This document shows positions 4,781 to 64,000 of a stretch of DNA of 64,000 nucleotides, one piece after another. The notes under the pieces were generated by a model, which did no database searches, was not told the origin of the DNA, and was given only the letters and a program-made list of their open reading frames with translations. The stretch lies in the NCBI RefSeq assembly GCF_006345805.1, contig NC_042998.1, forward strand, positions 63,736,001-63,800,000. Direction: 5' to 3'. The stretch is from Octopus sinensis (taxonomy: Eukaryota). How positions within the stretch are numbered: position 1 is the stretch's first letter; every line of letters starts with the position of its first letter. The position numbers and the translations under genes were made by a program.

Positions 4781-5185
4781 AAGACGGTTAACTGACAGAT
4801 TCCTTACAATGACGGGTGAAAGCACCTACTAGTGTTTCATCAAACTCTTTATGTTCTCAGTTCAAATCCTGCCGATATCGGCTTTGGCTTTCATTCTTTA
4901 GAGGTCGCTAAAATAAGTACCATTTGTGTACTAGGATCGTTACAATCAAATAACCCACTACCCACAAACTTTTAGGATCTGGCACTATAATAGTAAGAAT
5001 TGTGAAAACAGTGAAAAGGCAGTACTTTGCGATATTTCCTAAAATACAAGATGTTCTAAGTTCAAATTCTGCCGGGGTCAGTTTTTTCTTTCTTCCTCCG
5101 GATGTCGGTAAGATAATCTTCCATTCAAGTACAAGAGTCGATAATGTTGACTAATCCCTTTTCTCGAATTTGATGATCTTGTAAA
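4781..5185 (+). mobile_element. Two degenerate copies of SINE family B (Nin/Deu-like domain)
   Basis: gttcaaatcctgccga..gctttcattctttagaggtcgctaaaataagtacc, with a second copy near 5050-5150; both resemble 60593-60800. Confidence 0.6.
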
Positions 5186-8719: not shown

Positions 8720-8720
8720 T

Positions 8721-8860
8721 ATATATGAATTTTTTGCGTAATGAGATAATAAAATCAAAGCTGTATAGATATTAGAGCATTTCTAGATTTATATCTATAA
8801 ATGCTCTAATACCTATATAGCGTTAGATTTTTTACCTCACTACGCAAAAAATTCATATAT
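8721..8860. repeat. Imperfect ~140 bp palindrome (fold-back)
   Basis: atatatgaattttttgcgta.. is the reverse complement of ..tacgcaaaaaattcatatat; centre near 8790. Confidence 0.9.
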
Positions 8861-9009
8861 ACCCACGCTGACATAGAACGAACGTTGAACACTTTATTCG
8901 CATTATTACCGGATCTGGAACTTATCTATGGTCTGTCTATAGCACTTATTCAGCGATACCTGATACCTTTGGGTCTCAGTGACACCATTATCTCTTATAA
9001 CCTCAACTA

Positions 9010-11086: not shown

Positions 11087-11690
11087 ATAAAACAGGACAC
11101 GACTCGTCAACTAGTCCTTCATTGCGAGAGAATTAAAATAAAATTGCCTCGCATAGGGGAAAAAACAGACAAGAAAAACATGTGACAAAATCAGGACGTA
11201 AAAACGATACAAATACAAAATAAAAAGCCTTTTCATTTTGTTTTTCTCGTTTGTTTTCTTGTCTTTTGATTTCTCGTATTGTATTTTCTTTTTATTTCTC
11301 GTTTTGTATTTTCTTGTACGTGTATCTTTATCTTGTATTTTATTTTGCATTTGTATCGTTTTTACGTCCTGTTTTTGTCGCATGTTTTTCTTGTCTGTTT
11401 TTGCCCCTATGCGAGGCAATTTTATTTTAATTCTCTCGCAATGAAGGACTAGTTGACGAGTCGTGTCCTGTTTTATCCTTCGAAACACGCTTGAGTTAGC
11501 TAGAGACAGCTGATGAACTGGGGATTTTTCCTGTGTGGTTTCTCCTGTACCTTGTTTTTCTGTTGTAAAAAATAATGTTTTTCCCGTTTCCGTTTCGTCT
11601 GTTTTTTGTTGTAAAAATATGGCTTGTCCGATTTCGTTTTTCGTTGAGTTCTACGTCTAGTTGCAGTGTCCTGTACTCACGTATATATAA
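11087..11690 (+). mobile_element. PLE pLTR-like element with 5' inverted duplication
   Basis: 11087-11225 is the reverse complement of ~11338-11475; TA-rich flanks; CTGATGA and GAAAC remnants. Confidence 0.6.
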
Positions 11691-16899: not shown

Positions 16900-17110
16900 T
16901 AATATTTTTGCAGAAGGCAAGCAATTTCAGGAGGGTGTGAGATAAATCGATTACATCGACCCCATTTTTCAACTGGTACTTCTTTTGCATTTTTATCTAA
17001 CCAGAGTGGATGAAAAGTAAAGACGACCTCGTCGGAATTTCATCTGAGAAGGTAAAGACGAACGAAACGCCATGAAGCATTTAGTCCGGCGTGCAAACGA
17101 CTCTGCCTCT
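16900..17110 (-). mobile_element. SINE family B
   Basis: Reverse-complement similarity to 60593-60800 (ctggtact..gatgaaaagtaaagacgacctcgtcggaattt). Confidence 0.7.
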
Positions 17111-17130
17111 TTAGAGTTGGAACTAATATT

Positions 17131-17262
17131 CTTTTCTATCTTGGCACAAGGCCCGAAATTTTTTGGGAGGCGAGTTAGTCGATTAGATCTACCCCAGTAT
17201 ACAACTGGTACTTAATTTATCGACCCCGAAAAGATGAAAGATAAAGTCGACCTGGGCGGAAA
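17131..17262 (-). mobile_element. 5'-truncated SINE family B with 18-bp TSD
   Basis: agagttggaactaatatt at 17113-17130 and 17263-17280. Confidence 0.85.
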
Positions 17263-17740
17263 AGAGTTGGAACTAATATTGCCAGGCATTCTGCCTCATG
17301 TTTAAACAATTGTATCAGATATAGTTTATCTGCTCAAATTATATCTGGTTATTTGTTGCCTTCTTCAGATGCAATATTGTGCACCATTTAAATGTTTGTG
17401 TGTATGTGTGTACGTACAAATTTTAATACCTCGTAGTATTTTTCAAATACAATACTATGATGCAATTGTGAAACATTTAATGTTTCCTTAACACAACGTT
17501 GCTAAAAGTGAATGGTAGAAAAACCAACAACGTTGACTATTTTGCAATGGAAGCTTATTTAATCCCATATGTATATTTGTCAATATTAGGGTTGACATAG
17601 TAAACATGCAATACATGTAATTCATATTTCTGGGAGTGAAAATATTTCCACATAAAGCCTCCATTGAATTTAATATAGTATTTGAAAAATGCCACCGATA
17701 TCTATAATATAGGAATTAAATGTACAATAGTACCTAAGTA

Positions 17741-18438
17741 TATAATGGTTGTATACTGTCAATCTAACAAGAACGTGGCAGTAGGGGGTACACCACCGTT
17801 ATATAGCCCTAGGAGGCATCGAACTCCTCCTGACAGCTTCGACACATTTTATCCTGTGTCCTTATATACACATACGAAGGGGAGACAAACACCCCCAACT
17901 GCCGGAACTGCATCTAGGGACACCGTGTTTCAGGATCATTGTCCTTCATCGGCCTAGAGTAGCAGACACCGGTCAGCTGGCGATGTCTGTCTCGACTTCG
18001 TATCTGTATATATCTATAGTCAGTGAAGTCTATTCACTGATTATCAAAATAAGAAATATTGAGTTTCTAAATCTCTCGTAGAGAGGTGTACGGTGGTGGA
18101 GCGATATAATGGTTGTATACTGTCAATCTAACAAGAACGTGACAGTAGGGGGTACACCACCGTTATATAGCCCTAGGAGGCATCGAACGCCTGAAACATA
18201 GTGTCCCTAGATGCAGTTCCGGCAGTTGGGGGTGTTTGTCTCCCCTTCGTATGTGTATATAAGGACACAGGATAAAATGTGTCGAAGCTGTCAGGAGGCG
18301 TTCGATGCCTCCTAGGGCTATATAACGGTGGTGTACCCCCTACTGTCACGTTCTTGTTAGATTGACAGTATACAACCATTATATCGCTCCACCACCGTAC
18401 ACCTCTCTACGAGAGATTTAGAAACTCAATATTTATAA
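17741..18438. mobile_element. Hammerhead-bearing non-coding retroelement (364 bp unit, partial tandem plus inversion, 10-bp TSD)
   Basis: Direct repeat at 17740/18104; inverted arms 18054-18192 and 18296-18434; TSD tacctaagta at 17731-17740 and 18439-18448. Confidence 0.85.
17913..17958 (-). ncRNA. Type I hammerhead ribozyme motif (U4C variant)
   Basis: Minus strand: tctagg-CCGATGA-agga-caatga-tcct-GAAA-cac-g-gtg-TC-cctaga; stems I, II and III all pair. Confidence 0.8.
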
Positions 18439-18724
18439 TACCTAAGTAATTTCATGAAAAATACTCCTCTGAGTTATACCGGCAAAGTTTATTTCAGCGT
18501 AAGATTTTGACCCGAGGCTGAAAACATATTAGCTTTTGATATTTATCATAAACTACTTGAGGTAGCTATTCCTCAATTTATTTGTATTCACATAAAATTC
18601 ATAACAAAATATATGTATTGTGTTTGGAAAGTGAATTTTATTACTTAAATACGAAGAAAATGCACACAAAGTTACAGAGTGCATAAGTACAGAATGTTCA
18701 CTGCATTTATTAGCAGCAACAATG

Positions 18725-19756: not shown

Positions 19757-20002
19757 ATATATATATATACTATATATATATATATATAAAACATTATTGG
19801 TGAATTGAAGAAATGGAGCTGAACGCATTTCTTCAATTCACCAATAATGTTTTAATTTCAATTATCCGCACCAACGCACGGTTGCAACGCCAGATGGTTG
19901 TACCTCCAACCGTGCTGTTTACTGCTGTGATTTTTGCTACTAAGGTATCGGTTAAACTTTTGATTATCTACTACAAGATTATTCATCTTTCTATTTCACA
20001 TA

Positions 20003-33954: not shown

Positions 33955-35972
33955 GTATTATGTCTGAGATGTAATGTTGGGAATCAACTTCGTTCGCTTC
34001 TCTTACGTCAATATCAGTGGGATCACTAAAGACAGAGCAGTATTGTTTCTGCAGTATTTCTGCCATTTCTTTAGCATCGTAATGGGGAATGCCGTTATCA
34101 TCGCTCAATGGCCCAATTGGTGAGACAGCGGTCCTATGCTTATTTACATAGTAATAGAACACTTTTGGGTTCTTTTTGATGTTTTTGATTACCCACTATT
34201 CCTCCGCAGCTATTCGATTTTCATGTCAGTCTGTAGATGAAGTTTTTCCAACTCAAGCCTTTTCATTGTTGTTGAATTTAGATGTTGTATGAGGGAGTAT
34301 TGTAATTGGTTGATTTTTTTTAATTGTGTCTTTTCATGCGCCTGATGAGTGTTTTTTTTTTTCTTTTTAAGGAGCCGGTTTCTGTTTGTGTTAATGGATT
34401 TCGTAGGAGCGTGTTTTGAGTATGTATAGGTGACAATGTTTTCAAAGTGCTGTCATGCGGTCTCAATGTGAATGGAAGTGAGAATGAAAAACCAGTCGAT
34501 GGAGGGCAGATCCTTTCTGACTGCTCTCCAGTCCGGTTTGTGGAAGTTTATGTTGTCAAATGAATGCCATGGAGTGGGATTGGCTGGTATGGTTTTGATA
34601 TGCCGGGAATCGAAATTGCAGAGTATTACGTCGTCGTCTGAGAGGAGAGTTTTTTCAACTGAAATACTGTGAATGGAGTGGTTGGTTAATATTAGATCCA
34701 AGATCGTTTTATTCTGTCTTGCTGATTCGAGCATTATCTGAGTCAGGAAAAATTTATCTATTAGATCAAAGAGTAATTCTGCTGCTGCTTTATCTGATGT
34801 AGAACATTTGCCTAACCTCTGAGTATTTATGGGCCAGTGTATAAGAGGGAGGTTAAAATCACCCACCATTAGTATATTTCCGAAGTTGCATTTTTGAAGG
34901 AAGGACTTGATTCTGTTGAGGCACACTTCAAAGCAATTTAGATGTGATTGGGGAGGCCTGTAAAGATCAACAATGATGATGTCTTTGGCCTTGTTGAATA
35001 TTGATATAGATTAACAATAGCCATTGGAAAATATGTCCTTGGCATCAACTGAAAAGTAGTCATAGAGAAAGATGGCTGCCCCCCCTATATTTCGGTCTGT
35101 GCGATTTGCAAGTACGATGGTGAAATCTTATATTTTCACCTCGGCACCCATATGTGTGCTGTTCAGGTGAGTTTCAGTAAGGATAAAGAAAAGGAAGCAA
35201 CTCTCTATATATGGGGTCCTCCATTTTTGGCAATAATTGATGGGTTCATGCCAGGTATATTTAATAAGAATGTCGAGGTAAGGGCAGTTTGATATTTACA
35301 TTGTTCTAAGTTATGTATTATGTTGTTCAGTGGTAGCAATGAGGGTGGTTTTTGTATGGAGCTGTATGTGTATGATTTTCTAGTTTGTGGTGGGTGTGTG
35401 TTCATTGTATTTTGCATAAAAAGGTTGCTGATAACTCGTTGGATCTCCTGGCTTAGATCGGCTTACATATTTCCTAGATAAGTTAGTAAAAAATACATCG
35501 TAAAGTATATTTGCCACTTAAATGTGGCTAACCCCTAAGGGTATATGCTACTGTAGCTTCTAGCTCTAGGAGGACACCTGGAGCTACAAGCTACAGTAGC
35601 ATCCACTCTCAGGGGTTAGCCACATTTAAGTGACAGTTATACCTTACGATGTCATGCAGCTACTGTTTATACCTCGCTCAGAGATTTATTATTGTTAGTA
35701 AAAAAGAGTTGCCTCTTTGGTTTGTCACTTGGTCAGAGGATACATAGTTCATGTTTATGTTATTTGGTGTTATGGCTTTTCCACCGTTCTGTCTTCGTTG
35801 TTTGGTTGTAGGAGGTGAAATGTGGTTGTATTTTGGTTTTGTTGTTGTAGGTCTCCTCTGTTGCTCTTTATATTTATTTTTCGATCGTTATGTGGTGGTT
35901 GCATTCTGGCTTCAAGTACATCTTTAATGACACAGATGTTTGGCACAATTTAGGATGGAAGAAGGTGCAATG
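33955..35972 (-). mobile_element. CR1-group LINE 5' portion: ORF1 Cys/His finger remnant plus APE endonuclease, degenerate
   Basis: CTFFHPKLCQTS..CNHH; ILTETHL, MVGDFNLP, ILDLILTN, AEILQKQYCSVF. Confidence 0.85.
35494..35693. mobile_element. 200 bp fold-back insertion into the CR1 element, 12-bp TSD; same family as 17741 and 62199
   Basis: Palindrome 35495-35652; TSD gttagtaaaaaa at 35482-35493 and 35694-35705. Confidence 0.85.
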
Positions 35973-36129: not shown

Positions 36130-36213
36130 AAGGGTGAAAAGGAACACACGAGTTGATATATATGAAAATACAAGTCAAAAATAGAAAATGCTAAAATAAT
36201 TTTATAGTGAACA

Positions 36214-36257
36214 TTTCAGTACCGGTTTCGGTCATTTTGAGACCTTTTCAACTGTAA
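36214..36257 (-). ncRNA. Hammerhead motif in the inverted pLTR (U3-A8 variant)
   Basis: ttacag-TTGAAAA-ggtc-tcaaaat-gacc-GAAA-ccgg-TA-ctgaaa. Confidence 0.7.
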
Positions 36258-36300
36258 CGATTAAATAATTAAATTTAGAAAAATTAGACGAAAAGTTTTT

Positions 36301-37091
36301 TCTATAGTCTCTAACGCAAACACCAGAGACACACGACTACAAGAACTAAAAGATACCCTAATCACCAGGAACTATCCACCTTCACTTATTGACAAGTGCA
36401 TTCAACGTGCCCTTCAACTTAACATCAAGGAACTGAGACATCCCAAATCAAAGAAAAACTTACAACCAAAAGCCTTACCATACATCTCCATACACAACCC
36501 TCTCAATAACGAAGCCTTCGACACCATCCTCCACAACATACCCCTCCTAAAAAAAGACCACAGAATGAACACATCCTCCAAACACACACGATCATAAAAA
36601 GCAAAAGACAGCCTAGATCCATGAAAAGTCTCCTTACACAAGCCCGAATTCACTCCTCAACACAGAAGCCGACAGTAAAAAAATGTGGAAGACCCAATTG
36701 CGGGATATGCGACTATCTAATTGAGGGATCAGAGTTCTCCTTCAAGCAGGGACAACGGTTTACAGTGAAAAGCAACTTCACATATGCTTCGGAGAACCTA
36801 ATATACTCACTAACCTGCTCCGGGTGTCAAGAGCAGTACATAGGCCAAACAAAAAATGGTTTGCGTAAACGAATGGCCCTGCACAGATCCCAGATAAAAA
36901 TTCCCCAAAACAGAAAAATAGCTTTTAGCCAACACATAGATACTTGCGCCAACAAAAAAACACCAAACTTCAGAATTTTCCCCCTCTACCAATTTAGGGA
37001 CGATACAACCTCGAGACAACGAATAAGTAAAGAAAATCTCTTTATTACAAAATACAAGCCACTTCTAAACGGGTCTACGACAAACAATTAA
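36301..37091 (+). pseudogene. PLE RT C-terminal region plus Cys finger plus GIY-YIG endonuclease (one frameshift near 36580)
   Basis: RLQELKDTLITRNYPPSLI, KCGRPNCGIC, NLIYSLTCSGCQEQYIGQT..RMALH, KE..I..LLN. Confidence 0.92.
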
Positions 37092-37244
37092 TATACCTCA
37101 ACTTTAGAATAAAAGAAAAAAATATATATACACACAAATATTACACCCCATAGAATCCATTACTAATCAGCCCCTTCATAGCTATACTTACACCCATTCA
37201 TATTCCCCCTTCTCTGTTTTTTTCTTCTTCTTCTTCTTCCTCTT

Positions 37245-37603
37245 ATTTATTTAAATTTTAGAAGGATTTACCATTAATGCGTTAGAATGTTATTTATAAA
37301 TTTAATATTTCAAACAAGAATTTATGTCGTAGAGACTTTGCATTCAGAAGTAAATAATTATTGAATATTTCTCAGGATAGTTCTAATCAAGCAAACATAT
37401 TCACCGAAATCTCCCTTGGCCACTATGATAGTTTGACAAATTTTATCCATTTACTTCTTATAAAGGCTTCAGGAATAATTTCAGAGAAATGAATATCTAT
37501 TTCAAGCAGGTCATGCAAACTTACAAGAGCGTTCTAAAACTAGAACATTGACGTATAAATATTTGTTGATACATGCTGCAGGTATGTATATATTAATTTA
37601 TTC
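37245..37603. repeat. 359 bp inverted duplicate of 38810-39168
   Basis: Appears identical by eye to the reverse complement; sits inside the CTT/CAT tract of the PLE 3' region. Confidence 0.92.
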
Positions 37604-38170
37604 TTCATCATCATCATTATCATCATCATCGTCGTCATCATCATCACCACCATCATCACCACCATCTTCTCCTTCTCCTCCTTCTTCTTCATCATCATCA
37701 TTATCATCATCATCGTCGTCATAATCATCACCACCACCACCATCATCGTCATCTTCTCCTTCTCCTTCTTCTTCTTCTTCTTCTTCTTCTTCTACTTCTC
37801 CACCCCCTACCCCTTAACTTTGTCACTAATGTTTTTTAGTATAACACCTACGCTAATTCTATAAACCTACGCTAATTCTATAAACAAGCCTGTCAATATA
37901 AATATTCTCCTGAATTGAACTGAGACTGCCAGCCGCCACTGACCATTCAAAATACGACCATCAGGGCACTCCCAGATTCTCCCATCCCCCTTTCCCCACC
38001 AGCCTTCTTCCTCTACTACCCTTCCAAGAACTCACAACGACCTCCGACACACAAGTGCAAACAAGGGAGTCAGAGAAAGGCAGAATGCCACTTAAATCTG
38101 AACACTACTATAGAAATATTCTTTTAAAAAAACTTTTCTTCTAATTTTTCTAAATTTAATTATTTAATCG

Positions 38171-38214
38171 TTATAGTTGAAAAGGTCTCAAAATGACCGA
38201 AACCGGTACTGAAA
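38171..38214 (+). ncRNA. Hammerhead motif in the 3' pLTR (U3-A8 variant)
   Basis: ttatag-TTGAAAA-ggtc-tcaaaat-gacc-GAAA-ccgg-TA-ctgaaa; palindromic stem III. Confidence 0.7.
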
Positions 38215-39389
38215 TGTTCACTATAAAATTATTTTAGCATTTTCTATTTTTGACTTGTTTTTTCATATATATATATATATATACATACGCATATATATAT
38301 GTTTATATATATACATGTGTTTGAATATACGTATATATACATACACACACACATACACATATATATATACATATGTCGGCGTGTGTGTATGTGTGCATCT
38401 GTGCATGTATGTGTATCTTTGAAGGTAATTATAAATAAATGCATGTACCTACTTAACCATGTGGATAATTACCTTGAGGATGAGTAGTGATCCTTTATTT
38501 TTTGCCTGAAAAACTACAATTTACTCTATTGTGGGAATACCGATACTGTTTATATCGGTTCTATGGAGGCGTAATGCGGATTACACGCTAGAACACCAAA
38601 ATCAATATGCAATATATTGCAATGTTTACTGAATGAGATGAAGATGAAAATTTTATTTCTTGGGGCTGTTACTCTACCATTCACTTCCGATATCGCATTT
38701 ATTGCCAAAACGTATCCTTATACATTCTCATCTGCTGGTCTACTTTTAATTATTATATCGATATTTCATGTATAAACGTTTTGAAATAGGCTTCAACTAA
38801 TGCATCTTGGAATAAATTAATATATACATACCTGCAGCATGTATCAACAAATATTTATACGTCAATGTTCTAGTTTTAGAACGCTCTTGTAAGTTTGCAT
38901 GACCTGCTTGAAATAGATATTCATTTCTCTGAAATTATTCCTGAAGCCTTTATAAGAAGTAAATGGATAAAATTTGTCAAACTATCATAGTGGCCAAGGG
39001 AGATTTCGGTGAATATGTTTGCTTGATTAGAACTATCCTGAGAAATATTCAATAATTATTTACTTCTGAATGCAAAGTCTCTACGACATAAATTCTTGTT
39101 TGAAATATTAAATTTATAAATAACATTCTAACGCATTAATGGTAAATCCTTCTAAAATTTAAATAAATTGGATTCATCACTAAAAAATATTTCTTCCCTT
39201 CGTCTCATGAATAAATTTCTTTAGCAAAATTTTCACCGGAATCGAACAATCCAATGACGACCATACAATCCCTTCCTTTTTGTGACGTAGAAAATAGTTC
39301 TTTTTCATTTAAGGCAATATTATTTAGGTCTCTATGAGCATTATTTTGATTGCAAAATGTTTGGCCAGGATAAAAGCTGAGACCCACAT

Positions 39390-46273: not shown

Positions 46274-46392
46274 GGTTACGGCCATATTAGGTTGAAAGCA
46301 ACGGTTCTCGTCCGATCACCGAAGTTAATCAACATCGAGCCTTGTTAGTACTTAGATGGGTGACGTCTTAGGACACTTAGGTGCTGTATGCA
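46274..46392 (+). pseudogene. Full-length (119 nt) diverged 5S rRNA copy
   Basis: ttacggccata..ggttctcgtccgatcaccgaagttaa..gttagtacttagatgggtgac..ggtgctgta; solitary, with substitutions relative to the metazoan consensus. Confidence 0.9.
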
Positions 46393-49753: not shown

Positions 49754-50744
49754 TTGTTTATTTATTTTATGTACAAATGACTAATCGTAATTTGTATACA
49801 ATTGTTTAATATTGGTGTATTTAGATTTTCAAAAAACTTTTTAATATTTAAATATTTCAAAGTTGCATTTTTTATTGACTTCAGTAAATTTCTATTTTAG
49901 TATAGAGATATACTTGCATAGCAAGTGACCTGATCTGAGCTAGTGTGCTGAAACAAAAACAACCGCATCGTGTAAGTTGTTTATAAGCCATTTCAAAACA
50001 CACAAGAACTGTTAGATTCACTTCAACTTTTAAATTTAATTTGCCAAAATATTTTCCTCGCTTTGAGACCGTAACCTGTTCACTCAAAGAGACGGAAATA
50101 TTTTCGCAAATTAAATTTAAATGTTGAAGTGAATCTAATGCTTTTTGTCTCTTTTTAAATGGTTTACAAACACCTTCCACGCTGCAATTGTGTTTATTAT
50201 AATATAATTATGTTATTATGATAATGTGTATTTACGGTTTTTAATTTTGAGAATGTTATTTTCTTAAATAAACGACGTAATTTTTAATTTTGATTGAATT
50301 TTAGTAATGGATGTGATTTAAAATATTATTTAGTATAGGCCAAGTGAGGATAAAGTATTTGAATAAATTTTTCTCTACTCTTTAGCCATGACAAATCGAA
50401 GGTTGTTTTTGTTTTACAGTACTAGTGAGAATAAAATTTCTTTTTAATAAATTGTCTGAATAACATGTATTTTTCCTTATAGTATGAAAGAATAAAAGGA
50501 GATATTTCCTATTTCGAAATAAATTCTTAGCATATTGTTATTATCAGATTTAAACTAATGCTCAGAAATATATTTATTCACAAAAGCACACAAACATATT
50601 TATGACTATTATTCTATTTTGTTTTTTTTTCTTTTCCCACCTTTAACCATCCAAAGCGGAGTATAGGCCACGTATGATTTAATTCCATGTCGCATAAGTT
50701 TTCGCTTCTGTATTTATACTCTGCGATGAATGTGCCCCTGTACT

Positions 50745-57056: not shown

Positions 57057-57530
57057 ATTTGGGAACCTGACAAAGTTGCTGCAGCTCGGGTGGGATTTGT
57101 TACGACGAATTCTGATAGGTTGAGGCTTTCTGCCAATTCTCGGGTTGTGCAAGGTGGGTTACTCTCAACTAATGTCTTGATTTGGTCATCATCTGTAGTG
57201 GCCTAGCATATTGAAAGAAATCTGAAGATTCAGAAAATTATATTACATATATATAAGGCGAATGAACTCTAGGTAGATTCCTGATATGCTAAAGGTACAC
57301 ACCATGTTGTCTGACCACTAAGAAAAATTGTTCTCAAGAAAATTCGGCAAACATCAGAACGTAAAGAGAGCAAGACAAATGAAAGATAGATCTTCGCCGA
57401 ATTTTCCTGAGAACATTTTTTCTTATTGGTCAGTTGGTCAGACCATATGGTGTCTACATTTAACATATTAGGAATCCACCTAGTGTTCATTCTTGTTATA
57501 TATATATATGTATGCATGCATGTATGTATG

Positions 57531-60592: not shown

Positions 60593-60800
60593 AGGCGGTG
60601 AGCTGCCAGTCACATTAGCACACTGGACAAAATGCTTAGCGGCATATCCTTACGTTCTGAGTTCAAATTCCGCCGTGGTTGACTTTGCCTTTTATCTTTT
60701 CGGGGTCGATAAATTAAGTACCGGTTGCGTACTGGGGTTTATCTAATTGACTGGCCCTTTTCCCCAAAAATTCGTGCCTTGTGCCTAGACTAGAAAAGAG
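60593..60800 (+). mobile_element. SINE family B, full length, with TSD
   Basis: aggcggtgagctg..gagttcaaattccgcc..gactttgccttttatcttttcggggtcgataaattaagtacc; TSD tatt(g/t)tttagggtgta at 60577-60592 and 60801-60816. Confidence 0.88.
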
Positions 60801-60819
60801 TATTTTTTAGGGTGTATCC

Positions 60820-61265: not shown

Positions 61266-62198
61266 GCACAAAACGTAGAGGGAAGAAACAAAATGTCTAA
61301 AGCTGTACACTTTGTGAAATACAGAGTTGCATTGTTTCTGAGCAACTGAGATAACATATTGAACATAGAGACAATTGATTTCTCTCAATCCACGAACACA
61401 CACCAGAGTGGCACTGGAGTTATATGTTTAATCTTCATTTCTATAATATAATTCTTATGATTGCAAATAATAAAACCATCGTTTGTTTCAAAGTCAAACA
61501 AGGGATACACTTAACTGAATCACGGGATTTAGCTATGTCGATGGCATGTGAAACTTTCTGAAAGTACACTGATTTTGAAGCTAATGCAGTTGCATCGGTT
61601 CATGCAGTATGAATCAATATCAGTAAATTCGGCGAGCATAGCCCTACGACGTCACATAAGCTGTGAGTAATATCAAAATCTTGATCTTACCATATTCAAC
61701 AGTATTGAAAAAGGGAGCTACGGATTAAACAATGCATACATAGATAGGTTCAAGTAGACGAAGACAACGATGTGAATGCAAAAGTGTCATTAACAGTGGT
61801 ACTGTATACTCGTTCAACCTCCTCGAATAGTAGTCAAATGTTTCAAATTGTACCACACTAAAAGGTACAATCTAAAATTCAGCCCTCATTTCATTTATTG
61901 TGGAAGAAAAGATAGCTTCGTGGCATCTAGATTGCATTTTAACCTAAAACGTATTTGTTGGCTCCGGATTATAAATGAAGACACATACTCAGGGTGCTGA
62001 GAAGTGAGACTGAAATCGGAAATACACTGCTCCGAAGTGGACACTTCATAATTAGCCCGCCACCTCTCTCTCGTTACACACACACACACTCACACACCCA
62101 CACCAACACATGCACACATAAACACACACACCATCGGATGGTGACTTGCCATCATGTAGAAATATATTTACAAAAAACAAAATAATTTAAAATTTGAC

Positions 62199-62728
62199 AT
62201 ATTCAATTTCTAAATCTTTCATAGAGACTCATACAGCAGCAGCACGATAAAGTGATCGTTTGTTGCCAACTTAATGTGGGAGTCCCAGGATAAGGAAGAA
62301 TGTTACTGATATTTGGCACAAGGACACATCTTTTCCAGTTGGCTATGTGACACAAGAGTTCTGTGTCCTTATGTTTTCAAAGAGGGGAGATAAGCACATC
62401 CACCCAGCAAAACTAGTTTCAGAGTCATTGCTCTTCATCAGTCTGGAGTAGCTTGGCTTGCTAGCTGCCGATGCTTATTCACCTATGAAAGCTTATAGCA
62501 TTTCAAACGAAATAAATTCACTGATCTACAAAATTAGTAATATTGCATTTCTAAATCTCTCAGAGAGACTTATACAGTAGCAGAACGATAAAGTGACGGT
62601 TTTGTTGCCAATTTAACGTGGCAGTCCAAGGAAAGGGAAAAACACTACTGCTATTTAGCCCCAGGAAACATCGTTTCCAGGTGGCTACGTGGCACAAGCA
62701 TTCTGTGTCCTTAAGTTTTCAAACAGGA
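62199..62728 (-). mobile_element. Hammerhead-bearing partial tandem element (~341 bp period), relative of 17741
   Basis: tttctaaatct at 62207 and 62548; shared blocks ctgtgtcctta, ggggaga, gagtagc, ttcactgat. Confidence 0.8.
62412..62447 (-). ncRNA. Hammerhead motif; 3' strand of stem I missing
   Basis: Minus strand: tccaga-CTGATGA-agag-caatga-ctct-GAAA-ctagt. Confidence 0.65.
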
Positions 62729-64000
62729 TTATGACCTCATTTATATATATTTTTCCTACTTGAGAATTTTTTCACTTCCTATGTACACTTGTTTTACTCT
62801 ACGCATGCTCTACGCATGATTGATTTTGACCATCTACAACCCACTTATCAAAACCAATGCCACTGAACATATTGACTCTTTCAACATATTTGTATACAAT
62901 TTTACCTTTGGTATGTTCACCCCCCACTTCCTCCTAACGTAATCGCCCGCTGACATTCGTTGTCGCTGCATCGAGAAACCAAAGAACGAAAGAAGAAAGG
63001 AGAAAGAAGAAACACACTCAACGCCAGAGCTGAAGACACCTCCGAAAGTGGGGGGGTGCCAGGTCGAAAACGGTAGAGGGGTAGTGCCCCAAACGGGATG
63101 TGGTTCTTCCTGATGATGTCTTTAACCGCTGGATCCTATAAAGGAGCTGTTGAGGTAGCGAACCACGAAACGTGGTTGGAATTCCTACCCCATTGTTGGT
63201 ATGGTGACAGTGTCGGAAACAATGATTTGCATCTTTTTGTTCCAGTTTTTTTATGTAATGAGTTCAGTTCCTTTATGGGTCAACTTTCATCATCCTTATT
63301 TCAGCCTTGGGAAAATGTACTGAGACCGAAGTAATTGGCTGACGCCCAACATTTAATTTATATGTCTGTATCAAATTGCGTTATTCAACTCCTTTTAACA
63401 GTTTACGCACACACACATACAGACACATACACAAACGCAAACACATACACACACTCACACGTACACACATACAAGTATATGTTTGTAAGTGTACGTGTGT
63501 GTGTGCATAAACTGTTGCAGTGTGTGATTATTGCACACAAACAAAAGAATCACAAAGCGAAAATTGCAGATATAAGATTTTCTGTTTGTATATTCGTCTA
63601 GTATTACACCACTAAATACATGTACATAGTATTGAATGTCTGAATAATTCAAATATTCAAAACAAATATTTACAAACAGACGTCGGAATTGTAAATTTAA
63701 GCGAAATATATACTGTCAGGTGCATTATTACTCGTTATGTTTTTTTTCTCTCTTTGTAAAGTTTTTACGCTTGTTTAATAATATATACATATTTTTGTTT
63801 TCCTATCAGCTTTGTTATCAATATTTAATATTGCATGAAAAAAATTAAATATTTACCATGCGTCACTTTTAATCATACGTTTCATTTAAAAGTAAGTGTA
63901 ATGATTTTTTAAAATGTTTTATGCTTCATAATTCACATTTGTTTAATGAAGGCAACTTATTTAAGTTAAACTATTATGGTTTGAAAGCTGTCAATTCATA

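What the first reader, a model, noticed from the sequence alone, without database searches (positions are those of the whole stretch)
62199..62728. Distant family member shows covarying hammerhead stems and a shared 3' terminus
Seen: this element is homologous to the 17.7 kb element, but stem II is agag/ctct instead of agga/tcct around the same caatga loop, and the core is canonical CTGATGA. All three relatives (near 18434, 35687 and 62199) end, on the hammerhead-sense strand, within ~15 nt of the same AGAGATTTA(GAAA..AATAT) motif. Inference: selection on RNA structure and a defined 3' priming end, which points to a real and diversified mobile RNA family.
Basis: partly seen in the sequence, partly recalled or inferred. 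Interest (0 to 1): 0.75.

Follow-up and report, generated by a model that had tools for sequence, protein, structure and literature searches.

The report
Retrozyme family with Penelope insertion tails
This is a decayed copy of a very abundant ~355-base hammerhead-ribozyme repeat in an animal genome, and the ends of its neighbouring copies carry the inverted arm, short 'tail' and duplicated target typical of Penelope retrotransposons, which likely reveals the enzyme that spreads these parasitic RNAs.

Summary
62199-62727 (minus strand) is about 1.5 tandem units of a high-copy, non-coding repeat, 65% identical to the 17.7-kb element. Stem II covaries. A second covarying helix sits near the 3' end. 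The three long ends fall 9, 21 and 23 nt past the start of the AGAGATTTA motif.
(1) This copy's hammerhead is broken: other copies carry 14 more bases, beginning at the cleavage nucleotide. (2) The 17.7- and 35.5-kb copies are head-to-head inversions inside exact 10- and 12-bp target duplications. In both, the short arm stops 27 nt before the motif, leaving a 36-50-nt one-sided tail. That is the published signature of Penelope-like element (PLE) reverse transcription from two internal start sites.
Verdict: new member of a known kind, an animal non-LTR retrozyme, likely mobilised by a PLE. The retrozyme papers I read argue that link from co-occurrence and pLTR homology, not from insertion ends. 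Cleavage, circular RNA and the partner enzyme are untested. This scan has noted similar PLE-type ends on other DNA.

The parts
62199..62727 (-). Whole 62-kb element: about 1.5 tandem units (period 341 nt here, about 355 nt in other copies), 5'-truncated, no inverted arm, no clear TSD
   Evidence: (depth edges; joints going back 313-317 with letters between, 40 in the one such joint shown)
62530..62727 (-). First, partial unit (3' part of the repeat), 80% identical to the second
   Evidence: 169/210
62412..62447 (-). Type I hammerhead remnant: stem I 5' strand 62447-62442, core CTGATGA 62441-62435, stem II agag-caatga-ctct 62434-62421, GAAA 62420-62417, palindromic stem III ACTAGT 62417-62412
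62411..62412 (-). Site of a 14-nt loss relative to other family copies: cleavage nucleotide C17 plus the 3' strand of stem I
   Evidence: loose ends before 62412 in 28/44/54/6 contigs of the four runs; pieces with 14-16 gaps across the site
62386..62482 (-). Long rod extending stem I, with compensatory changes against the 17.7-kb element
62574..62651 (-). 3' domain: 9-bp closing helix around an inner hairpin, covarying across three lineages; candidate binding site for the reverse transcriptase (inferred)
62540..62587 (-). Internal copy of the 'tail' segment: 27 nt, a small hairpin, and the AGAGATTTAGAAA..AATAT motif
62199..62219 (-). Terminal motif copy; 3' end of the insertion, in AT-rich DNA
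17741..18192 (-). 17.7-kb relative, inverted (short-ended) arm: 1.24 units of 364 nt with a complete type I hammerhead (core CCGATGA at 17952, cut after 17919); stops 27-28 nt before the motif
18190..18438 (+). 17.7-kb relative, long arm: starts inside stem II, ends 23 nt into the motif plus 4 unmatched bases; tail 18385-18434
17731..17740 (+). 10-bp TSD, left copy (right copy 18439-18448)
   Evidence: 1 of 3000 random window pairs shares 10 or more
35494..35693 (.). 35.5-kb relative: head-to-head palindrome (arms 35495-35652) with a one-sided tail 35653-35688; no hammerhead
35482..35493 (+). 12-bp TSD, left copy (right copy 35694-35705)
   Evidence: 0 of 3000 random pairs shares 12 or more

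Best explanation
The element is a decayed insertion of a high-copy, non-coding ~355-nt repeat carrying a type I hammerhead (an animal non-LTR retrozyme), whose RNA is likely copied into the genome by the reverse transcriptase-endonuclease of a Penelope-like element starting at two fixed internal sites. Steps. SHOWN: tandem units, high copy number, a family hammerhead with paired stems I-III and a GUC site, inverted arms, TSDs, and two recurring 3' ends. INFERRED: tandem transcripts self-cleave (probably as dimers, given the short palindromic stem III) and are ligated into circles; a PLE protein binds the covarying 3' domain, nicks AT-rich DNA and primes on both strands, one primer 27 nt before the motif (short, inverted arm) and the other 9-23 nt into the motif (long arm with tail); copying runs through the ribozyme on a circular or uncut multimeric template and gives more-than-unit-length inserts. 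The 62-kb copy is old (its two units are 80% alike) and cannot form the ribozyme.
For: Tandem period conserved across lineages (341+14, 364; contig joints of 347-356 nt). Family hammerhead geometry of 6-bp stem I, 4-bp stem II and a short palindromic stem III matches the canonical metazoan type I motif described in PMC4209133. GC 40-45%, longest stop-free frame 58 and 98 aa, and the 364-nt circle folds with z=-8.0, 0 of 100 shuffles as stable. Head-to-head inversion, 10- and 12-bp TSD and a one-sided 36-50-nt tail in 2 of 2 inverted copies match the PLE structure in PMC3846280 and PMC8557442 and the two internal RT starts of PMC11167929. Joints between opposite strands occur in contigs of other copies. 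The ends lie about 180 and 230 nt downstream of the cut site in the 17.7-kb copy, so priming is internal. A GIY-YIG-encoding Penelope-type remnant lies in the same window.
Against: No autonomous element sharing this unit or tail was found: the window's PLE remnant has an unrelated pLTR and no genome was available. Only three insertions have readable ends, and the 62-kb copy has neither an inverted arm nor a significant TSD (962 of 3000 random pairs score as well). Contig loose ends did not resolve a terminus distribution. The 50-nt tail exceeds the usual 30-40. Neither window hammerhead is fully canonical: U4 is C at 17951; stem II closes with A-U, not G10.1-C11.1; Rfam finds no hammerhead in either. 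The 62-kb unit folds no better than shuffles (z=-1.7). Covariation rests on 2-5 related sequences.
Confidence: 0.75

Rival explanations
1. The units are 5'-truncated stumps of the pseudo-LTR of an autonomous Penelope-like element, not a free-living retrozyme; tandems arise from repeated insertion.
For: The inversion, tail and TSD are PLE hallmarks. The 2026 preprint finds retrozyme units homologous to pLTRs in Xenopus. The 35.5-kb copy is just such a stump.
Against: The sequence across the unit junction is conserved between lineages 65% alike, and the period is near constant, so the unit is joined to itself. No ORF lies upstream. The hammerhead is of the canonical 6/4-bp type, whereas metazoan pLTRs mostly carry minimal forms, as does the PLE at 36-38 kb here (read).
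Confidence: 0.15
2. A hammerhead-bearing SINE-like RNA mobilised by a LINE, with the inversions made by twin priming.
For: LINE reverse transcriptase fragments are common in the window (judged by eye from the translations). TSDs of 10-12 bp in AT-rich targets fit LINE integration (own knowledge).
Against: There is no poly(A) or simple-repeat tail. In twin priming (recalled) the inverted piece ends next to where the direct piece begins, at a variable place; here the inverted arm ends at the same position, 27 nt before the motif, in both copies and overlaps the direct arm almost fully.
Confidence: 0.05
3. A satellite or palindromic DNA repeat spread by DNA-level processes; the pairing reflects DNA hairpins or an ancient ribozyme that is no longer used.
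For: Neither window hammerhead is intact and canonical. No RNA product was shown. In the preprint 8 of 9 tested retrozyme dimers did not cleave.
Against: Strand-specific fixed ends with TSDs. Compensatory changes with G-U pairs in helices on one strand. An intact hammerhead reading in the majority of contigs of all four runs.
Confidence: 0.05

Closest known systems
Animal non-LTR retrozymes (Cervera & de la Pena 2020, PMC7229834; mussel repeats of 350-390 bp; axolotl 330/350 bp)
   Same: Tandem non-coding units of about 355 nt, GC below 50%, canonical type I hammerhead with weak stem III, a highly self-paired predicted circle, TSDs longer than 4 bp, PLEs in the same genome
   Different: No sequence match tested against those families. 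Stem II closes with A-U. The insertions show inverted arms, fixed paired ends and a conserved terminal motif and helix; the 2020 review PMC7761336 says metazoan retrozyme repeats show no conserved motif pointing to their helper. Circular RNA was not shown here.
Endonuclease-positive Penelope-like element insertions (PMC3846280, PMC8557442; Poseidon PAc mechanism, PMC11167929)
   Same: Head-to-head inverted arm, one-sided tail, 8-12-bp TSD, AT-rich target, start of reverse transcription internal to the RNA and away from the ribozyme cut
   Different: No ORF. The unit repeats on itself. The hammerhead is canonical rather than minimal. One tail is 50 nt.
Retrozymes as non-autonomous PLE derivatives (bioRxiv 10.64898/2026.07.22.740005)
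   Same: Same conclusion on the helper element
   Different: That work uses co-occurrence and pLTR phylogeny, mainly in vertebrates; 'tail' occurs 0 times and 'inverted' only in a reference title in its main text. Here the argument is from insertion ends, and no pLTR parent was found.

Membership tests
Animal non-LTR retrozyme | Tandem units of 150-450 bp | tested here: met
   341 and 364 nt in the window; joints of 347-356 nt in contigs
Animal non-LTR retrozyme | Canonical type I hammerhead in the unit (family level) | tested here: met
   Core and stem II in the window; cleavage triplet and stem I 3' strand read from loose ends in all four runs; complete topology at 17913-17958 apart from U4 to C. 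No Rfam hit.
Animal non-LTR retrozyme | This copy is an active retrozyme (complete ribozyme in two consecutive units, the preprint's criterion) | tested here: not met
   One hammerhead only, and it lacks 14 nt
Animal non-LTR retrozyme | Non-coding, GC below 50%, no LTR arrangement | tested here: met
   GC 0.40 and 0.45; longest stop-free frames 58 and 98 aa. PBS and PPT were not searched for.
Animal non-LTR retrozyme | High copy number, dispersed, TSD longer than 4 bp | tested here: met
   (TSD on 2 of 3 copies)
Animal non-LTR retrozyme | Highly self-paired circular monomer | tested here: inconclusive
   Met for the 17.7-kb unit (z=-8.0), not for the decayed 62-kb unit (z=-1.7)
Animal non-LTR retrozyme | Self-cleavage and circular RNA in vivo | not testable with these tools
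   Only contigs were offered
PLE-mobilised insertion | Head-to-head inverted arm with a one-sided tail of 30-40 nt | tested here: met
   2 of 3 copies; tails 36 and 50 nt; short arm ends at the same position. Absent in the 62-kb copy.
PLE-mobilised insertion | Short TSD in AT-rich target | tested here: met
   10 and 12 bp; flanks 67-83% AT against about 65% for the window
PLE-mobilised insertion | Unit or tail homologous to the pLTR of an autonomous PLE | tested here: inconclusive
   No match to the one PLE remnant in the window; genome not available
Autonomous PLE | RT plus GIY-YIG ORF | tested here: not met
   No ORF in the three copies

The most novel reading that the evidence does not exclude
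The genome records the whole retrozyme life cycle. A covarying 3' RNA domain shared by three lineages is the cis signal that a Penelope-type enzyme binds to prime twice, 27 nt before and just inside the AGAGATTTA motif. The 14-nt gap in this copy, which begins at the cleavage nucleotide with no microhomology, is the scar of an RNA that had self-cleaved, been trimmed and been rejoined (or jumped across by the RT) before it was copied. Together these would be direct genomic evidence that cleaved, circularised retrozyme RNA is the template of PLE-driven transposition.
Probability: 0.25. Interest if true: 0.68.

Novelty: new member of a known kind. Interest (0 to 1): 0.47.

Why it matters
Which enzyme moves animal retrozymes has been argued indirectly. 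Paired fixed ends, a tail, an inversion and a TSD on retrozyme copies are a mechanistic footprint of PLE reverse transcription. They also point to a specific ~110-nt structured segment that can be put into the existing in vitro PLE assay. The family is very abundant, so the test can be run on thousands of insertions once a genome is at hand. The 62-kb copy itself is an ordinary decayed repeat.

Tried and rejected
Rfam: no hammerhead at gathering threshold in the window, nor up to E=10 in 62150-63420 or 17860-18030. No genome held, so no genome-wide copy alignment, R-scape-type test or terminus plot.
13 of 122 matches pair 4/4 in stem II, but none is homologous to this family beyond the motif (one 32-nt hit on the motif itself). 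The CAAUGA loop is therefore not a family marker.
Sequencing runs: no RNA holder listed. Run X23, only guessed to be RNA, laid 228 contigs, which is no evidence of transcription.
Loose ends before 62547 in one run (16 contigs, agreement 0.58) looked like a terminus cluster, but their consensus resembles the unit's own AT-rich continuation, so I do not count them. Only 24 of 912 loose-end rows, 15 of 98 joints, 40 of 182 variant rows and 32 of 7181 pieces were shown. No listed piece confirms the 14-nt gap at this locus, so an assembly error is not excluded.
A degenerate TSD for the 62-kb copy was rejected as chance. My first estimate of a 16-nt gap removing stem III (alignment to the 17.7-kb copy) was corrected to 14 nt with stem III kept. 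The share of pairs kept was not significant in any permutation set (P=0.10-0.39). Earlier scan notes by sequence and by place: none.

Full report
Setting. The window is AT-rich (about 35% GC), dense in microsatellites, and holds LINE-like fragments, a 5S rRNA copy and a GIY-YIG fragment. It is animal DNA. It resembles octopus genomes as I recall them; I did not test this. No whole genome was held.

Observation. On the minus strand, 62727-62199 is about 1.5 copies of a unit with period 341 nt; the repeated parts are 169/210 identical. The unit aligns to the 364-nt unit of the 17.7-kb element at 219/335 positions, far above 200 shuffles. The long ends lie 23, 9 and 21 nt after the start of the motif at 18412, 35680 and 62219; three uniform ends fall that close with P=0.005. 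The 35.5-kb copy is linked by weaker homology (63-67% over about 125 nt) and holds no hammerhead.

The family is large. Contigs of four public runs were laid on 62135-62990 at 80% likeness: 1967, 1865, 2840 and 228 were laid. In the three large runs the summed depth is 1,200-670,000 in every bin from 62222 to 62743, under 5 in the first flank bin, and 0-97 from 62744 to 62917. This is not a copy number, but it shows a high-copy repeat whose edges match the finding. Joints that skip 347-356 nt, or go back 313-317 nt with letters between (40 in the one such joint shown), show head-to-tail units of about 355 nt in other copies. Joints between opposite strands show inversions in other copies (15 of 98 joints shown).

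This copy's ribozyme is broken. In all four runs, contigs break off before 62412 (28, 44, 54 and 6 contigs) and continue with bases that the window lacks; pieces crossing the site carry 14-16 gaps. Read on the sense strand, the missing 14 nt begin with the C of a GUC triplet and continue with TCTGGA, the exact partner of the TCCAGA that precedes the core. So the family hammerhead has a 6-bp stem I, a 4-bp stem II and a minimal palindromic stem III (ACTAGT). That is the canonical metazoan type I geometry, which needs a tandem partner to cleave efficiently (PMC4209133, passages). Against the 17.7-kb copy (TCTAGG/CCTAGA), stem I then shows two more compensatory pairs; I read these by eye. The 62-kb copy cannot form stem I. 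The gap starts one base from the scissile bond and has no microhomology at its edges. Trimming and rejoining of a cleaved RNA would give this, but so would a later DNA deletion at a hairpin, and one case cannot decide. No listed contig confirms the gap at this locus. The 17.7-kb hammerhead has complete topology but U4 is C, and both close stem II with A-U instead of the usual G-C; Rfam detects neither.

Covariation. With the 17.7-kb fold as reference, double changes in the 62-kb copy keep the pair in 4 of 4 cases in the best-aligned 20 pairs (P=0.011; region chosen after inspection), 6 of 6 in 29 pairs (P=0.08) and 9 of 10 in 39 pairs (P=0.05). The overall share of pairs kept is not significant. 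On five arm sequences, 87.5% of cells pair and 5 of 13 pairs change on both sides; 0 of 500 shuffles reach this, and slid controls give 21-59% paired. The structure was derived from these same related sequences, so this is support, not proof. The helix appears unprompted in free folds of 2 of 4 copies. The 364-nt unit folds as a circle with z=-8.0; the decayed 341-nt unit gives z=-1.7.

Insertion ends. The 17.7-kb element is a head-to-head inversion (17741-18192 minus, 18190-18438 plus; arms 98-99% alike) inside an exact 10-bp duplication. The 35.5-kb element has the same layout inside an exact 12-bp duplication. Only 1 and 0 of 3000 random window pairs share that much. In both, the inverted arm stops 27 nt (27-28 in the first) before AGAGATTTA, while the other arm runs into the motif, leaving one-sided tails of 50 and 36 nt. 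The same 27-nt spacer is present in the internal unit of the 62-kb copy. An adjacent inverted copy, a 30-40-nt tail on one end and an 8-10-bp TSD are described as PLE hallmarks (PMC8557442 and PMC3846280, passages). In the anole Poseidon protein the tail is the stretch between two internal RT start sites, and ribozyme cleavage is not needed in vitro (PMC11167929, parts 1-2 of 4). Here too the ends are not the ribozyme cut: in the 17.7-kb long arm the cut is after 18205 and the two end positions are 18384 and 18434. Both the 62-kb copy and the 17.7-kb inverted arm read through a hammerhead, so the template was a circle or an uncut multimer. The 62-kb copy itself has only the long end, with no inverted arm and no significant TSD.

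Mechanism. Shown: tandem non-coding units, abundance, family hammerhead pairing, inversions, TSDs, two recurring ends. Inferred from the papers cited: transcription, dimer-assisted cleavage, circularisation by a host ligase, and PLE protein binding at the 3' domain with priming on both target strands. Rivals: pLTR stumps of an autonomous PLE (0.15), a LINE-driven SINE with twin priming (0.05), DNA-level satellite spread (0.05). The window's own PLE remnant (GIY-YIG at 36510-37091) has an unrelated pLTR, so the helper is not identified.

Comparison and novelty. The family meets the sequence-level features of animal non-LTR retrozymes (PMC7229834, parts 2-4 of 6 and passages); mussel units there are 350-390 bp. 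PLEs were proposed as helpers in that paper and in PMC7761336 (passages), which notes that the repeats show no conserved motif pointing to the helper. A 2026 preprint (10.64898/2026.07.22.740005, parts 1-3 of 5 and a term search) supports the link by co-occurrence and pLTR phylogeny and does not discuss tails or inversions. My six searches listed no paper on an octopus retrozyme or on PLE tails at retrozyme ends. The library is incomplete and I read no supplements; those of the retrozyme papers may show insertion structures. This scan has noted PLE-type ends on small non-coding units in other genomes (unchecked notes seen after I had recorded the tail). Verdict: a new member of a known kind with a useful mechanistic footprint; interest 0.47.

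Noticed in passing
window 36156-38272: Penelope-type remnant: GIY-YIG fragment at 36510-37091 (Pfam PF01541, E=5.5e-5) between 146-nt inverted repeats (36156-36301, 38127-38272) that carry a minimal hammerhead-like motif with a palindromic stem III, read by eye. Unrelated in sequence to the retrozyme family.
   Followed up: partly
window 37245-37603 and 38810-39168: A perfect 359-nt inverted repeat that straddles the right-hand pLTR of the PLE remnant; could be a young insertion, a local inversion or an assembly effect.
   Followed up: no
window 8720-8861, 19787-19854, 49952-50198, 57244-57508, 11087-11476: Five more palindromic elements, several beside AT microsatellites and some with a one-sided GC-richer extension; unique within the window. 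May be stumps of other PLE or MITE families.
   Followed up: partly
window 63095-63190 and 63295-63350: A CTGATGA...CGAAAC arrangement and a second hairpin next to the finding; possible degenerate hammerhead of another element. Not found by my stem-pairing scans or by Rfam.
   Followed up: partly
window 62918-62990: Start of another repeat: contig depth rises again to hundreds or thousands.
   Followed up: no
window 35495-35652: The two arms of the 35.5-kb palindrome differ at about 10 of 76 positions although its TSD is exact; several differences match the states seen in the 62-kb versus the 17.7-kb lineage, as if the arms came from different template units.
   Followed up: no
window 16903-17261, 4846-4972, 60615-60804: A separate dispersed short repeat family with partial tandem copies (69-83% alike); resembles an octopus SINE as recalled, untested.
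   Followed up: no
window 46274-46392: Isolated 5S rRNA copy (Rfam 74 bits) directly after an AT microsatellite; probably a retroposed or SINE-associated copy.
   Followed up: no
L009, L024, L050, L076, L077 and 8 further metagenome loci: Hammerhead-like motifs with the same CAAUGA loop and fully paired stem II in metagenome contigs, unrelated to this family.
   Followed up: no
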